Virus record (IMG/VR): IMGVR_UViG_3300050343_000157
Coordinates: 1-61,161 of that record
DNA from: a virus
Taxonomy: Duplodnaviria > Caudoviricetes
DNA length: 61,161 nucleotides
Direction: 5' to 3' (one strand)
In this document: piece after piece, positions 46,669 to 55,925 of the stretch
How the letters are laid out: each line of letters starts with the position of its first letter
How positions within the stretch are numbered: position 1 is the first letter of the stretch
Position numbers and translations under genes: made by a program
The notes under the pieces: generated by a model
What the model saw: only the letters and a program-made list of their open reading frames with translations
Told to the model about the DNA's origin: nothing
The model's database searches: none

Positions 46669-46922
46669 TCTACAAGTACTATATCACCAAGCTTTAATAC
46701 ATAATACAGTTGATCTTTCCATTCAATACCGTGACCGGCTACTTTATCGTAATGAACTATATCATCTTTACTAAGGCCTTCTGCTAAATTACCAGCAGAT
46801 ATTACTTTGCCTTTTAAATATCTAACATCTTTGTTTTGATCTTCAGTTAGTTCTAAACCACCAACTTTCTTTGGTGCTTCTTTTATTTTTTCTATGACTA
46901 CGTAGTAATTAATTGCTTTCAT
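46665..46922 (-). CDS. groES: co-chaperonin GroES
   Basis: KKVGGLEL mobile loop, GKVISAG, DIVHY; adjacent to groEL. Confidence 0.85.
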   Translation of the reverse strand: MKAINYYVVIEKIKEAPKKVGGLELTEDQNKDVRYLKGKVISAGNLAEGLSKDDIVHYDKVAGHGIEWKDQLYYVLKLGDIVLVE

Positions 46923-48474
46923 CTATTCGCTTATTATTAATTACACAATCTGCAGAGAAAATAGTATTAACAACACTAACTGCATTCTTCAGGGCTGTTT
47001 TAGTAACTAACACTGGATCTATAACACCTTCTTTAATCATATCAACAGTTTTACCATTGATTACATTTATTCCTTTACCCGACTTGCCAGACTCTTTATA
47101 TTCTAAGTTTGCATTCTCAAGTATTGTAGCGTAAGGTGATTTTATTGCTTCAAGAAGAATTGATTCGCCTTCGTCTGCAGGAATTATGCTATACGATGCA
47201 TCCAGTAAAGCTACCCCACCTCCTGGAACAATACCTTCTTGTAATGCTGCTTTAGTTGCATATATTGCATCTTCAACTCTATCTTTCTTTTCTTTTAACT
47301 CTACTTTTGAATTAGCACCTACTTTTACAATAGCTACATATCCATTTAACATCGCTAGTCTTTGTTGTAGTCTTTTCTTAAAGAATGGATTTTTTTCATC
47401 TTTAACTTTGCTTTCAACTAATTCTATTCTTTCGTTTAGTACAGGACCTTGATCTTTGATTGTTAATACAGTGTTTTTATCATCTGTAACGGCTTTAATT
47501 GCCTCACCTAATATATTAGGCTCAATCAAATCCAAATCGTCCCCTAACTCTTCGTTTATAACTTTAGCACCGGTAAGTATCGCAAGATCTTCAATTGTGT
47601 CTTGCCTAGTAGGTCCGAATCCAGGGAGATCAATTACATTGACTTTTATATTGCCTTTAACTTTATTTGCTAGCAATGCTGCTAATGGCTGCTGTTCTAC
47701 GGTCGCTACGATAAGCAAACTTCTTTTTTCTTTTATAACAAACTCTAGTACATTCTGAATCTTACGAATGTTTGGGATTGGAGAAGAAACTATCATTACG
47801 TACGGTTTTTCTAGTTCTGCTTTTCCTTTATCCTTGTCGGTTACAAAGTATGGCGATTTGAGTCCGCACTCTATCTGTGTGCCTTCAACAAATTCAACAT
47901 TTGTTTTTTCGGTCTCAGACTCTTCCATTAAGACGACGCCGTCTTTACCCACTTTAGAATAGGCTTGCGATATTATCTTGCCGAGTTCTTTATCGTTGTT
48001 ACAGCTAATACTACTTACATTTTCTAACATATCGCCTTCGACTTCAACCGCAGCTTCATCTAAGTAATGATTTACTTTTTGTAAACCATTTTCAATACCG
48101 TTTTTTATGCTTCTTATATTATTTGTAAAATCTTCTTTTTTTGTTGCTAAATTCAATAATGAATGAGCAAGGACGGTTGCCGTAGTGGTACCGTCACCTG
48201 CTTCTTTCACTGTGTTTTTAGCTGCTTCCTTTATTAAGGTTGCTCCCATATTTTCGACCGGGTCAATTAAGACTACGCTTTCCGCAACGGTTACTCCGTC
48301 TTTTGTTATTACCGGTCTTCCGAGAGCGTCCTCGTAAATTACACATTTACCAGAAGCACCAAGGGTTGATTTAACTGCTTGAGTTAATTTTTCAACACCT
48401 GTCATTATTTTTGTTCTAGCATCTGTTCCGAAGGACAGATCCTTTACTATCTCACTTGGGTTATTATATTCCAT
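46909..48474 (-). CDS. groEL: chaperonin GroEL
   Basis: ITKDGVTVA, AGDGTTTATVLA, EGIVPGGG, GVIDP. Confidence 0.97.
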   Translation of the reverse strand: MEYNNPSEIVKDLSFGTDARTKIMTGVEKLTQAVKSTLGASGKCVIYEDALGRPVITKDGVTVAESVVLIDPVENMGATLIKEAAKNTVKEAGDGTTTATVLAHSLLNLATKKEDFTNNIRSIKNGIENGLQKVNHYLDEAAVEVEGDMLENVSSISCNNDKELGKIISQAYSKVGKDGVVLMEESETEKTNVEFVEGTQIECGLKSPYFVTDKDKGKAELEKPYVMIVSSPIPNIRKIQNVLEFVIKEKRSLLIVATVEQQPLAALLANKVKGNIKVNVIDLPGFGPTRQDTIEDLAILTGAKVINEELGDDLDLIEPNILGEAIKAVTDDKNTVLTIKDQGPVLNERIELVESKVKDEKNPFFKKRLQQRLAMLNGYVAIVKVGANSKVELKEKKDRVEDAIYATKAALQEGIVPGGGVALLDASYSIIPADEGESILLEAIKSPYATILENANLEYKESGKSGKGINVINGKTVDMIKEGVIDPVLVTKTALKNAVSVVNTIFSADCVINNKRIDESN

Positions 48475-55314: not shown

Positions 55315-55503
55315 ATGTATTGTAAATGCGGCGACAAAGTACACGAAGTACGAATCAAATTAGGATATAGAACTTGTATGCCTTGTTCAACAACCCAAAC
55401 CTATTCTTATGTACCTATAATAGCACATAAAACAGGTAACACAATACAGATAGTGAGTCAAGAAGTGAGCGATTCAGTTCACAGGGCTTGGCGAAGAAAG
55501 TAG
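55315..55503 (+). CDS. DksA/TraR-like C4 zinc-finger protein
   Basis: CKCGDKVHEVRIKLGYRTCMPC resembles CxxCGxxIxxxRLxxxxxxxxCxxC. Confidence 0.6.
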   Translation: MYCKCGDKVHEVRIKLGYRTCMPCSTTQTYSYVPIIAHKTGNTIQIVSQEVSDSVHRAWRRK

Positions 55504-55602
55504 CAGGACGAGTAGCTTAATTAGGCGCATGTGGCGACGACTGTCGACGGGCATATGTGATCATACGGAAGTGTATTGCGTACATAAGTGAATTGCCTGC
55601 TA
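55501..55602 (+). ncRNA. candidate structured ncRNA
   Basis: GC-richer intergenic segment closed by TAGCAGG/CCTGCTA, with internal hairpins. Confidence 0.45.
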
Positions 55603-55607
55603 CAACA

Positions 55608-55689
55608 GGGAGTGATATGGTAAGTGAGACTGTTCGCTTGATTGCGGTACACGACATCTCAAACGGCGGTTCGACTCCGCCCACTTCCA
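55608..55689 (+). ncRNA. tmRNA tRNA-like-domain-only RNA with alanine identity
   Basis: GGGAGTG/CACTTCC-A acceptor with G3.U70; unpaired D-loop; TGAGA/TCTCA stem; GGCGG-TTCGACT-CCGCC T-arm. Confidence 0.65.
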
Positions 55690-55694
55690 CTAAA

Positions 55695-55766
<72 letters not shown>

Positions 55767-55769
55767 CTA

Positions 55770-55925
55770 ATGAAATATCCAAATGCAACGAAACATTTTT
55801 ATGTGTCGATTCTGAAGAGTACAGTAAGAATTGGCGGGTATGTGCTAATACCTTTCGATATAATAGCGGCAACTATAGTATTGATAATCAGCGAGTTAAT
55901 CGGCGTGATTGAAGAAATGGTTTAA
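55770..55925 (+). CDS. small membrane protein (51 aa, not in ORF track)
   Basis: MKYPNATKHFYVSILKSTVRIGGYVLIPFDIIAATIVLIISELIGVIEEMV*. Confidence 0.65.
   Translation: MKYPNATKHFYVSILKSTVRIGGYVLIPFDIIAATIVLIISELIGVIEEMV

What the first reader, a model, noticed from the sequence alone, without database searches (positions are those of the whole stretch)
55608..55689. Minimal tmRNA-like RNA: tRNA-like domain with alanine identity but no mRNA-like domain
Seen: acceptor GGGAGTG/CACTTCC with G3.U70 and discriminator A; a 10-nt D-loop without D-stem; a bulged helix TGAGA-c-TGT-t-CG/CG-ACA-TCTCA closing a 15-nt loop; a 3-nt AAC linker; and a canonical T-arm. Known: G3.U70 is the AlaRS determinant, and a stemless D-loop plus short linker defines the SmpB-binding domain of tmRNA, which normally also has a tag ORF and pseudoknots over roughly 350 nt. 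Here the whole RNA is 82 nt. Inference: a phage RNA that sequesters SmpB, rescues ribosomes without tagging, or decoys RNA-targeting defences.
Basis: partly seen in the sequence, partly recalled or inferred. Interest (0 to 1): 0.82.

Follow-up and report, generated by a model that had tools for sequence, protein, structure and literature searches.

The report
Phage tmRNA reduced to tRNA-like domain
A marine phage carries an 82-base RNA gene that looks like only the alanine-accepting, tRNA-like end of the bacterial ribosome-rescue RNA (tmRNA); this kind is known from one mycobacteriophage but here forms a large family that the standard gene finders used here overlook.

Summary

It belongs to a real RNA family. 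My covariance model finds 59 copies in 99 sources. Of the cells, 94% pair, and 12 of 17 pairs change on both sides. A 3'-end pattern finds at least 118 IMG/VR stretches with U70. Only 4 stretches have another base there, and none of them is a family member.

Rfam's tmRNA model is the best clan match, but it scores below its cut-off (27.5 and 36.1 bits against 47). There is no tag frame and no room for pseudoknots.

The architecture and the CTA trailer match the published "TLD only" tmRNA of mycobacteriophage DS6A. I therefore call it a new, large family of a known kind, in phages related to Flavobacteriaceae podophages.

The likely action is alanylation plus SmpB binding, which would interfere with or replace tagging. 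This is inferred, not shown.

One unexpected side result: two unnamed structured RNAs lie next to these genes in relatives (one of them also in the window), and they share swappable hairpin modules with its central helix.

The parts
55608..55689 (+). TLD-only tmRNA-like RNA gene (82 nt as encoded, up to the discriminator)
   Evidence: Sequence and fold. RF00023 matches 55608-55692 at 36.1 bits and 27.5 bits. My model R1 scores it 75.3 bits.
55608..55614 (+). Acceptor stem, 5' strand (GGGAGTG). G3 forms the G:U pair.
   Evidence: G3:U70 is present in 48 of 48 distinct rows.
55615..55624 (+). Stemless D-loop analogue (10 nt) holding the conserved GG
   Evidence: Unpaired in the MFE fold. A8, G12 and G13 are invariant in 27 of 27 aligned sequences. 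It aligns to the 5' consensus of tmRNA.
55625..55661 (+). Central hairpin, the counterpart of tmRNA helix H2/P2. It varies in sequence and length between relatives.
   Evidence: All 5 of 5 modelled basal pairs change on both sides, and 79.1% of cells pair. Family length is 62-185 nt.
55662..55664 (+). AAC linker before the T-arm
   Evidence: A56 and C57 are invariant in 27 of 27 sequences. They align to the AC of the tmRNA consensus.
55665..55681 (+). T-arm: 5-bp stem and TTCGACT loop
   Evidence: The T-stem pairs in 100% of cells, and 4 of 5 pairs change on both sides.
55682..55689 (+). Acceptor stem 3' strand (CACTTCC, U70 at 55686) and discriminator A (55689)
   Evidence: U70: at least 118 IMG/VR stretches, against 0 family members with another base.
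55690..55692 (+). CTA trailer in place of an encoded CCA
   Evidence: The same CTA follows the DS6A TLD-only tmRNA and most relatives.
55695..55767 (+). tRNA-Met (CAT), 5 nt downstream. A probable co-transcribed neighbour, not part of the RNA.
   Evidence: ARAGORN. RF00005 at 70.1 bits. A tRNA lies within 10 nt downstream in 10 of 113 family instances; 27 of 113 have a tRNA within 400 nt, and 26 of those are tRNA-Met.
55499..55603 (+). 'Element A', an unnamed conserved structured RNA that ends 4 nt upstream. Its link to the TLD is unresolved.
   Evidence: 50 distinct copies with covarying P1 and P2. No Rfam match. It shares hairpin modules with TLD central helices.

Best explanation
This is a phage gene for a tmRNA reduced to its tRNA-like domain, in other words a 'TLD-only' ssrA.

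Inferred life cycle:
1. The RNA is transcribed with the neighbouring tRNA-Met.
2. RNase P cuts it at G1.
3. It is trimmed at the 3' end and given CCA.
4. Host alanyl-tRNA synthetase charges it with alanine through G3:U70 and A73.
5. Host SmpB binds it at the elbow formed by the stemless D-loop and the T-loop.

It has no tag reading frame and no pseudoknots, so it cannot complete trans-translation. It could compete with host tmRNA for SmpB, EF-Tu and stalled ribosomes. Alternatively it could accept the nascent chain and add a single alanine without a degradation tag. Either way, the net effect in the infected cell would be less ssrA tagging.

Shown here: the structure, its conservation, the kept alanine identity elements, the missing mRNA-like part, and the same design as the published DS6A RNA.

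Inferred: processing, charging, SmpB binding and the effect on tagging.
For: Architecture.

A family under selection:
- 59 R1 matches in 99 sources.
- The acceptor and T stems pair in 100% of cells, with both-sided changes at 3 of 7 and 4 of 5 pairs. The covariation score is 0.517 against 0.118 in shuffles (0 of 500 reach it).

Alanine identity is kept while neighbouring pairs change:
- G3:U70 is present in 48 of 48 rows.
- Seven acceptor-stem types all carry G3:U70.
- At least 118 stretches have U70. Only 4 have A, C or G there, and none of those is a family member.

Likeness to tmRNA:
- RF00023 is the best clan match. It aligns both ends of the 374-position model.
- The 3' part hits the ends of annotated tmRNAs in Streptomyces phages: 4 of the top 6 records have a tmRNA or tag-peptide feature under the match, at weak E-values of 0.2.
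- More tmRNA-like relatives (L075 type) share the D-loop-to-P2a and P2a-to-T-arm sequences of full Bacteroidetes tmRNAs.
- A cultured relative, Maribacter phage Panino, carries a true permuted tmRNA (RF04321, 63.9 bits against a cut-off of 47).

Precedent: the DS6A 'TLD only' tmRNA is 83 nt, has G3:U70, A73 and a CTA trailer, and scores 43.2 bits.

Literature (passages read):
- Such a molecule inhibits tmRNA in E. coli (PMC4131195 and PMC11915505).
- Peptidyl transfer to a TLD-only tmRNA occurs in vitro (PMC3895274).
- SmpB binds the TLD elbow, and G3:U70 with A73 sets alanine identity (PMC3968760).

The phage itself has no SmpB, so any partner would be the host's.
Against: No biochemical step was tested.

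- The Rfam score is below the gathering score of 47. In the same pipeline, ordinary tRNA-Ala genes reach 27-28 bits, so the model score alone discriminates weakly.
- The window's lineage lacks the UUCGAC and GGAC consensus around P2a that the more tmRNA-like relatives keep. Whether SmpB contacts are kept is unknown.
- CCA is not encoded.
- My model R1 does not match DS6A, so homology with that RNA is not shown.
- According to PMC4131195, the inhibition in E. coli did not need chargeability. Pure SmpB titration therefore does not explain why G3:U70 is invariant here.
- The counts for U70 come partly from patterns that fixed other acceptor bases, and the model was built from sequences with G3:U70.
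- The central helix carries modules shared with two neighbouring RNAs, which this explanation does not account for.
- Coverage by RNA-library contigs does not prove a discrete transcript.
Confidence: 0.7

Rival explanations
1. The tRNA-like domain is mainly a scaffold, giving processing by RNase P and stability. The working part is the variable hairpin module at the tip of the central helix, for example a protein-binding or decoy RNA. The phage would display the same modules on two other scaffolds (elements A and B).
For: - 29 of 102 distinct central regions share a same-strand module with the P3 region of element A in some contig, up to 55 nt at 96% identity. A shuffled control gives 0.
- By eye, the same modules also sit in the insertion site of element B.
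- Family length ranges from 62 to 185 nt, and all of that variation is in this helix.
Against: - A scaffold role would not require the alanine identity pair and the discriminator to be invariant.
- Many members carry only a short hairpin capped by a GAAA-type loop.
- The sharing of modules could result from recombination between neighbouring hairpins and have no function.
Confidence: 0.12
2. The alanyl-RNA serves as an alanine donor outside translation, for example for an aminoacyl-tRNA-dependent transferase. Lacking an anticodon arm would keep it away from decoding.
For: Alanine identity is kept while there is no anticodon arm. That such transferases exist is general knowledge, recalled and not checked in any call.
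Against: - No such enzyme was recognised among 10 neighbouring ORFs in Pfam or PHROGs.
- The D-loop, T-loop and linker follow the tmRNA consensus, not a tRNA's.
- The more tmRNA-like relatives point to descent from ssrA.
Confidence: 0.05
3. The TLD, element A and element B are the separated parts of one rearranged tmRNA. Element A would be a remnant of the tag end and helix 5, and element B a pseudoknot.
For: - Element A holds a short stretch around a UAA inside helix P2 that resembles the tag end and helix 5 of a Bacteroidetes tmRNA. This was judged by eye.
- Element B forms a covarying pseudoknot, also judged by eye.
- The combined size in relatives approaches that of a tmRNA.
Against: - Elements A and B lie 5' of G1, where RNase P would cut them off. 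The TLD closes its own helix, so nothing links the parts.
- The conserved bases of A are explained by helices P1 and P2, which covary.
- No Rfam tmRNA model matches A or B.
- The A motif lies within 400 nt upstream of only 33 of 106 TLD copies, and the B motif of 20 of 106.
- The window has no element B.
Confidence: 0.04
4. It is a decayed tRNA gene (tRNA-Ala or a class II tRNA) or a chance tRNA-like fold.
For: - Dulem virus 40 has a tRNA-Tyr with the same 5' acceptor strand directly upstream of a tRNA-Met.
- The window's own fold has a z-score of only -2.28.
Against: - The family is conserved and covaries.
- In 7 of 8 relatives folded singly the D-loop stays fully unpaired and the centre is one hairpin, with no anticodon arm.
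- ARAGORN makes no call for 142 of 146 instances.
- The tRNA model loses to tmRNA in the clan comparison and stays under its cut-off of 29 bits.
Confidence: 0.02
5. It is a leftover attachment site: a copy of the 3' end of a host ssrA gene carried by a temperate phage.
For: Phages often integrate into ssrA and carry fragments of it (PMC9004378 and PMC11590407, passages read).
Against: - Both acceptor strands are present and pair.
- No tyrosine integrase was found in a record estimated 95% complete.
- The 5' strand covaries with the 3' strand.
Confidence: 0.01

Closest known systems
'TLD only' tmRNA of Mycobacterium phage DS6A (tmRNA Website; PMC4131195, PMC11915505)
   Same: - Phage-encoded and about 80 nt long.
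- 7-bp acceptor stem with G3:U70 and A73, and a CTA trailer.
- Stemless D-loop, one central hairpin, a 3-nt linker and a T-arm.
- No tag frame.
- RF00023 aligns end to end below its cut-off: 43.2 bits for DS6A against 36.1 bits here.
   Different: - No sequence-level kinship is detectable with my model.
- DS6A keeps the GGUCGAC-type D-loop end, while the window has GGUAAG.
- DS6A is a single actinophage example. This is a family of at least 118 marine viral stretches, with a highly variable central helix built from modules.
Standard bacterial tmRNA (ssrA, RF00023), for example that of Bacteroidetes genomes
   Same: The acceptor stem with G3:U70 and A73, the D-loop GG, the AC linker and the T-arm all align to the model's two ends. 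L075-type relatives share the sequence on both sides of helix P2a with Bacteroidetes tmRNAs.
   Different: It lacks the tag frame, helix 5 and all pseudoknots. It is 82 nt against 371-400 nt. Its score is under the gathering cut-off, and it has CTA instead of CCA.
Permuted (two-piece) tmRNA of Maribacter phage Panino, a cultured relative
   Same: The phage is related (portal 47.6% identical). The acceptor has G3:U70 and a CTA trailer, and the L067-type mini RNAs have the same acceptor type.
   Different: Panino's gene is permuted and matches RF04321 above its cut-off (63.9 bits). ARAGORN proposes a tag frame for it. The window's RNA is in standard order and has no coding part.
CDS-less organellar tmRNAs (jakobid mitochondria, RF02544; two plastid genes of about 65 bp)
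   Same: They are reduced to little more than the tRNA-like domain, and no tag frame is apparent (PMC11915505 passage; PMC3590771 abstract).
   Different: They are organellar and co-occur with an imported SmpB. RF02544 was not shown separately, because the clan competition kept only RF00023.
tRNA-Ala
   Same: It has G3:U70, A73 and a T-arm. Some viral tRNA-Ala genes share the same acceptor stem (L096).
   Different: The window's RNA has no D-stem and no anticodon arm. ARAGORN makes no call, and the tRNA model scores under 27.5 bits, against about 70 bits for the neighbouring tRNA.

Membership tests
tmRNA (ssrA, RF00023) | The 5' and 3' ends form an acceptor stem with G3:U70 and discriminator A (alanine identity) | tested here: met
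   G3:U70 is present in 48 of 48 distinct rows. The definition is from a passage of PMC3968760.
tmRNA (ssrA, RF00023) | tRNA-like T stem-loop | tested here: met
   GGCGG-TTCGACT-CCGCC. 100% of cells pair, and 4 of 5 pairs covary.
tmRNA (ssrA, RF00023) | Reduced D-loop without a stem, and no anticodon arm; helix H2 takes its place | tested here: met
   The GG is invariant. The definition is from a passage of PMC3968760.
tmRNA (ssrA, RF00023) | mRNA-like domain with a resume codon, tag frame and stop codon | tested here: not met
   Only 37 nt lie between the D-loop and the linker. ARAGORN finds no tmRNA. The central region is not conserved in sequence or length.
tmRNA (ssrA, RF00023) | Pseudoknots (PK1-PK4 or their replacements) | tested here: not met
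   The fold is a three-way junction with one plain hairpin, and 326 model positions are deleted in the alignment.
tmRNA (ssrA, RF00023) | Reaches Rfam's gathering score (47 bits) | tested here: not met
   27.5 bits and 36.1 bits. tRNA-Ala genes score 27-28 bits in the second pipeline.
tmRNA (ssrA, RF00023) | CCA tail present in the gene (required by the tmRNA database curators) | tested here: not met
   CTA at 55690-55692. The curators' rule is in a passage of PMC11915505. DS6A also has CTA.
tmRNA (ssrA, RF00023) | Charged by AlaRS; binds SmpB and EF-Tu; enters stalled ribosomes | not testable with these tools
   Needs biochemistry. No SmpB gene is in the phage.
TLD-only (CDS-less) tmRNA, DS6A type | A complete tRNA-like domain of tmRNA type, about 65-85 nt, closed by a hairpin, with no coding part | tested here: met
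   DS6A was run through the same tests.
TLD-only (CDS-less) tmRNA, DS6A type | Closer to tmRNA than to tRNA | tested here: met
   The clan competition keeps RF00023 over RF00005. Intermediate relatives share P2a flanks with Bacteroidetes tmRNA.
TLD-only (CDS-less) tmRNA, DS6A type | Common descent with the DS6A RNA | tested here: inconclusive
   Model R1 finds nothing in DS6A at E<=1. An independent loss of the coding part is as likely.
TLD-only (CDS-less) tmRNA, DS6A type | Inhibits host trans-translation | not testable with these tools
   Reported for a similar molecule in E. coli (PMC4131195 and PMC11915505 passages). The primary paper (Mao et al. 2009) is not held.
tRNA (RF00005) | Cloverleaf with D-stem and anticodon arm; reaches 29 bits | tested here: not met
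   No ARAGORN call. No RF00005 match at gathering. Any tRNA match is below 27.5 bits.

The most novel reading that the evidence does not exclude
The alanine-accepting tRNA-like domain is one of three neighbouring RNA scaffolds in these phages, the others being elements A and B. All three draw on a shared pool of interchangeable hairpin modules. If so, the charged TLD would not merely block tmRNA. It would carry a variable RNA module to SmpB, EF-Tu or the stalled ribosome, or present it to a host defence sensor. That would be a modular RNA system of a kind not described in the papers I searched. The evidence shows that modules are shared and that the alanine identity is invariant. It does not show that the modules do anything.
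Probability: 0.12. Interest if true: 0.85.

Novelty: new member of a known kind. Interest (0 to 1): 0.55.

Why it matters
Phage tmRNAs are counted with ARAGORN-type tools. One survey found them in 402 of 18,146 phage genomes (PMC9004378 passage). This family escapes those tools: ARAGORN makes no call for 142 of 146 instances, and no Rfam match reaches gathering.

The one published TLD-only phage tmRNA has been treated as a curiosity. Here the same design recurs in at least 118 marine viral stretches and in 105 distinct sequences. Interference with ribosome rescue, or a tag-free form of it, may therefore be a common strategy of phages related to Flavobacteriaceae podophages.

The strict retention of G3:U70 and A73 gives a testable prediction that goes beyond SmpB titration: charging with alanine should matter for function.

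The family also provides natural minimal substrates for work on AlaRS, SmpB and EF-Tu. In addition, the locus holds two further unnamed structured RNAs.

Tried and rejected
1. Decayed tRNA. This idea was prompted by Dulem virus 40, where a tRNA-Tyr with the same 5' acceptor strand precedes a tRNA-Met. I rejected it because of the family covariation.

2. Cultured relatives by blastn.
- A 701-nt query found only the tRNA-Met part.
- An 85-nt query found only weak 3'-end matches (E 0.2-9). The top ones lie in Streptomyces phage tmRNAs.
- No cultured phage with this family was found. R1 gives only weak matches in Panino and in MW202828 (20-24 bits). The Panino match overlaps a tRNA-Asp and the acceptor piece of its permuted tmRNA. 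I read the MW202828 match by eye as an odd tRNA-like sequence and did not follow it.

3. Neighbouring proteins. None of 10 ORFs has a useful Pfam or PHROGs match: one sub-threshold UVR motif and one family of unknown function.

4. Promoters and terminators. No terminator-like site was found, and the promoter-like sites are generic (23 against 13.9 expected). The scan does not cover Bacteroidetes-type promoters, so it says nothing either way.

5. RNA evidence. Contigs of four seawater metatranscriptome runs, laid at 90% likeness, give depth over 55572-55705 in X1 and X2, 1.79 in one of the two bins in X3, and none in X4. Contigs show no ends or strand, and DNA carry-over cannot be excluded. The uncovered bins (55773-55906 in X1, X3 and X4) carry no weight.

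6. A short frame in element A read as a tag (ending in V-A-stop). I rejected this as the main reading because helices P1 and P2 explain the conservation.

7. Tools and papers not available.
- Mao et al. 2009 is not held.
- Supplements are closed. The supplementary tables of PMC11915505 and PMC9004378, which I could not see, may list further viral CDS-less tmRNAs.

8. Literature searches for a description of this family found none in the held library. The terms included mini-tmRNA, TLD-only, minimal tmRNA, tmRNA-like, truncated tmRNA, CDS-less tmRNA, DS6A, and Flavobacterium or Cellulophaga phage together with tmRNA.
Full report
WHAT IS THERE

The window is a 61,161-base IMG/VR virus record, estimated 95% complete, with about 34% G+C. 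It encodes a portal protein, a GroEL-type chaperonin, tail fibres, a ribonucleotide reductase and a DNA ligase. Its portal protein is most like those of podophages of Flavobacterium, Cellulophaga, Tenacibaculum and Maribacter: 87 records at 41-53% identity.

The finding lies in a stretch of small + strand ORFs, 5 nt upstream of a tRNA-Met(CAT) gene at 55695-55767.

- acceptor strands GGGAGTG and CACTTCC, which give G3:U70;
- discriminator A;
- ten unpaired bases in place of a D-arm;
- a central hairpin based on TGAGA/TCTCA;
- an AAC linker;
- a canonical T-arm.

The minimum-energy fold reproduces this three-way design (-28.0 kcal/mol). On its own it is only moderately better than shuffles: z = -2.28, and 4 of 200 shuffles fold as well. 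After the discriminator the genome reads CTA, not CCA. ARAGORN does not call the element, and no Rfam family reaches its gathering score there.

IS IT REAL?

I collected relatives in two ways.
- 66 loci around homologues of the nearby DNA ligase.
- 41 IMG/VR stretches that match the acceptor strands and the T-loop.

The extracted sequences showed a constant 5' part (acceptor strand plus D-loop), a constant 3' part (AAC, T-arm, acceptor strand, A, CTA), and a central hairpin that differs in sequence and length yet always pairs at its base.

I built a covariance model from 27 sequences, with 17 base pairs given by me.
- It found 37 matches of at least 39 bits in 36 of 67 sources, namely the window and 35 of the 66 ligase loci.
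- It found 59 matches at E<=1e-5 in 99 sources.

On the 48 distinct aligned rows:
- 94.0% of cells pair. Shuffles give 71.5% and 0 of 500 reach the observed value. Slid partners give 38.7-54.4%.
- 12 of 17 pairs change on both sides.
- The acceptor and T stems pair in every cell.
- Acceptor position 4 occurs as A-U (29), C-G (15), G-C (3) and U-A (1), and positions 1 and 6 also change on both sides.
- G1-C72 changes in only one row. G2-C71, G3:U70, G5-C68 and G7-C66 never change.

This alignment was fitted to the model. The model was built from sequences with G3:U70, and part of the input was selected by a pattern that fixed the acceptor stem. I therefore ran a separate test.
- The same pattern demanding A, C or G at position 70 found 4 stretches.
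- Three of the 4 are near-identical copies of a sequence that by eye has a D-arm and an anticodon arm. The fourth is an unrelated G+C-rich stretch. None belongs to the family.

In all I obtained 105 distinct sequences of 62-185 nt, with seven real acceptor-stem types, every one with G3:U70. Two further apparent types were false 5' ends picked by my script.

Eight of 8 relatives folded one by one give the acceptor stem, a central hairpin and the T-arm. In 7 of 8 the D-loop is fully unpaired. Their z-scores run from -1.9 to -3.5.

WHAT IS IT?

Scanning only the 91 bases around the element, Rfam's tmRNA model RF00023 is the best match in the tRNA/tmRNA clan (27.5 bits, E 4e-10). It aligns the first 18 and the last 30 positions of the 374-position model, with the 326 interior positions deleted. 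The tRNA model scores lower. The whole-genome search gives 36.1 bits for 55608-55692. Both values are below the gathering score of 47. In the second pipeline, ordinary tRNA-Ala genes reach 27-28 bits, so this score alone is weak evidence.

Three other results carry more weight.
- Some relatives retrieved by the same acceptor pattern (L075 type) keep the stretch from the D-loop into helix P2a and the stretch from P2a into the T-arm. These stretches are nearly the same as in full-length tmRNAs of two Bacteroidetes genomes (174 and 142 bits, tags GTNNYALAA and GEESYALAA). They look like a tmRNA with its interior cut out.
- Maribacter phage Panino, a cultured relative, carries a permuted tmRNA that passes Rfam's cut-off (RF04321, 63.9 bits against 47). 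Its acceptor type is also found in some of the mini RNAs.
- The published 'TLD only' tmRNA of mycobacteriophage DS6A, run through the same search, behaves the same way. It is 83 nt and scores 43.2 bits over model positions 1-374. It has G3:U70, A73, a CTA trailer, a stemless D-loop, one central hairpin, a 3-nt linker and a T-arm. It is unannotated in its GenBank record.

The window's RNA thus meets the features that define the tRNA-like domain of tmRNA (passages of PMC3968760). It fails those that define a complete tmRNA:
- no tag frame;
- no room for pseudoknots;
- no encoded CCA;
- a score below the gathering cut-off.

I file it as a TLD-only tmRNA, not as a tmRNA proper.

My model does not detect the DS6A RNA. 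Common descent with it is therefore not shown, and the coding part may have been lost independently.

HOW IT MOST LIKELY WORKS

What follows is inferred. The neighbouring tRNA-Met and the tRNA-like shape make RNase P cleavage at G1 likely, followed by 3' trimming and CCA addition. G3:U70 and A73 are the determinants for alanyl-tRNA synthetase, and SmpB binds the elbow of the stemless D-loop and the T-loop (PMC3968760 passages). The phage has no SmpB of its own, so the partner would be the host's.

Three passages from the literature bear on the mechanism.
[quoted passage not shown] 2009).
- PMC11915505 states the same for the DS6A form. I could not read the primary paper.
- Peptidyl transfer to a tmRNA cut down to its TLD occurs in vitro (PMC3895274 passage citing Shimizu and Ueda 2006).

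My own contribution is the invariance of the alanine identity elements while neighbouring pairs covary. This argues that charging is under selection. That favours a role needing EF-Tu and ribosome entry (a competitor at stalled ribosomes, or rescue that adds one alanine and no tag) over plain SmpB sequestration. I put 0.7 on the identity plus this general mechanism.

What I cannot explain is the behaviour of the central helix, described next.

SURROUNDINGS AND AN UNEXPECTED RESULT

Context. The tRNA-Met neighbour is not general. Of 113 distinct instances with enough downstream sequence, 27 have a tRNA within 400 nt (26 Met, 1 Gln), and 10 have one within 10 nt.

Element A. Directly upstream in the window (55499-55603) lies a second conserved structured RNA.
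- It follows the stop codon of a small conserved ORF with two Cys-x-x-Cys motifs (55315-55503).
- I found 50 distinct copies.
- Two helices covary. P2 position 2 is C-G in 39 and G-C in 11. P1 position 3 is U-A in 34, C-G in 6 and A-U in 5.
- The helices flank a conserved internal loop, and a third hairpin is variable.

Element B. Many relatives, but not the window, have a third RNA between element A and the TLD. By eye it has a covarying stem and a pseudoknot.

Neither element matches any Rfam family.

Shared modules.
- The variable hairpin of element A and the central helix of the TLD draw on the same set of modules. Of 102 distinct TLD central regions, 29 have a same-strand match in the variable part of an element A copy, up to 55 nt at 96% identity. 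A shuffled control gives 0.
- By eye, the same modules also occur in the insertion site of element B.
- For example, a module of about 55 nt that sits in element A of the window (about 55527-55585) lies inside the TLD in two relatives, making them 143 and 185 nt long.
- This may be recombination between neighbouring hairpins, or it may be functional. I could not tell.

Distribution.
- In the genome collection the pattern occurs in 15 stretches. Nine are strong family members (56-75 bits). All nine lie on contigs of metagenome-assembled genomes labelled as very different taxa, and seven of these contigs are under 10 kb. This fits phage DNA binned by mistake.
- ARAGORN makes no call for 142 of 146 pattern instances.
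- Seawater metatranscriptome contigs give depth over the element in two of the four runs laid (X1, X2) and over one of its two bins in X3, which is weak evidence of expression.

COMPARISON AND NOVELTY

The kind, a phage tmRNA reduced to its TLD, is in print for one phage. CDS-less tmRNAs are also known from jakobid mitochondria and two plastids.

What is new is the scale and the phage group: at least 118 marine viral stretches, in phages related to Flavobacteriaceae podophages. Also new are the comparative proof of structure, the selection on alanine identity, and the module exchange with two unnamed neighbouring RNAs. Four full-text searches found no description of this family.

VERDICT

- Observation: confirmed.
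- Interpretation: right in structure, untested in function.
- Novelty: a new member (a large new family) of a known kind.
- Interest: 0.55.

Noticed in passing
window 55499-55603 (+): 'Element A' is an unnamed structured RNA between a small Cys-rich ORF and the TLD. It has two covarying helices around a conserved internal loop and a variable third hairpin. I found 50 distinct copies in relatives, and no Rfam match. In metatranscriptome contigs, the highest summed depth of the 2-kb stretch falls at 55438-55571.
   Followed up: partly
window about 55527-55585; L030:4452-4594; L050:3725-3909; many other loci: Hairpin modules are shared between the TLD central helix and the variable hairpin of element A: 29 of 102 TLD central regions, against 0 for a shuffled control. 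By eye they are shared with the insertion site of element B too. The module in the window's element A lies inside the TLD in two relatives.
   Followed up: partly
L005:3630-4020, L009:3594-3671, L011:487-635 and others; absent from the window: 'Element B' has a core of about 78 nt with a covarying outer stem, an inner stem and an apparent pseudoknot. It has a variable insertion site and lies between element A and the TLD in many relatives. Its motif is within 400 nt upstream of 20 of 106 TLD copies. No Rfam match.
   Followed up: partly
window 55695-55767 (+): The neighbouring tRNA-Met has three consecutive G-C pairs at the foot of the anticodon stem. From memory this is typical of initiator tRNA. 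It pairs U1 with A72. It may be an initiator-type tRNA.
   Followed up: no
L007:3746-3834: One relative has a chimera: the 5' part of the mini tmRNA is joined to the 3' part of the tRNA-Met, as if the DNA between the two T-arm regions had been deleted (27.8 bits).
   Followed up: no
window 55606-55694: One metatranscriptome contig (run X1, depth 4.7, 25 letters on the shorter side) joins 55606 to 55694, skipping 87 bases that are almost exactly the mini tmRNA. This may be a relative without the gene. The evidence is weak.
   Followed up: no
L122:758-1090 (Maribacter phage Panino, PP540027.1:27557-27889): The annotated tmRNA of Panino overlaps a tRNA-Asp and a tRNA-Thr. Rfam instead places a permuted tmRNA at L122:791-933 (63.9 bits), so the deposited boundaries and the ARAGORN tag peptide are doubtful.
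   Followed up: partly
L001:375-537 (Dulem virus 40): A tRNA-Tyr with the same 5' acceptor strand as the window's RNA is followed after 7 nt by a tRNA-Met. This arrangement resembles the window's, but in an apparently unrelated gut phage.
   Followed up: no
L033:97-170 and 1768-1861; L246 (G001:C16:53388-53650): Some contigs carry two copies of the mini tmRNA. In L033 the second copy has A1-U72 and discriminator U. In L246 two copies lie side by side, and one of them encodes CCA.
   Followed up: no
L222-L236 (genome contigs): Nine strong family members lie on contigs of metagenome-assembled genomes labelled Aliivibrio (4 contigs), Bacteroidetes (2), Planctomycetota, Ilumatobacteraceae and Rickettsiales. 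Seven of the nine contigs are under 10 kb. Phage DNA was probably binned into these genomes.
   Followed up: partly
window 46909-48474 (-): The phage encodes a GroEL-type chaperonin (phrog_5725, E 4.9e-135).
   Followed up: no
window 55315-55503 (+): A small ORF of 62 aa with two Cys-x-x-Cys motifs is conserved directly upstream of element A in relatives. It has no Pfam or PHROGs match.
   Followed up: no
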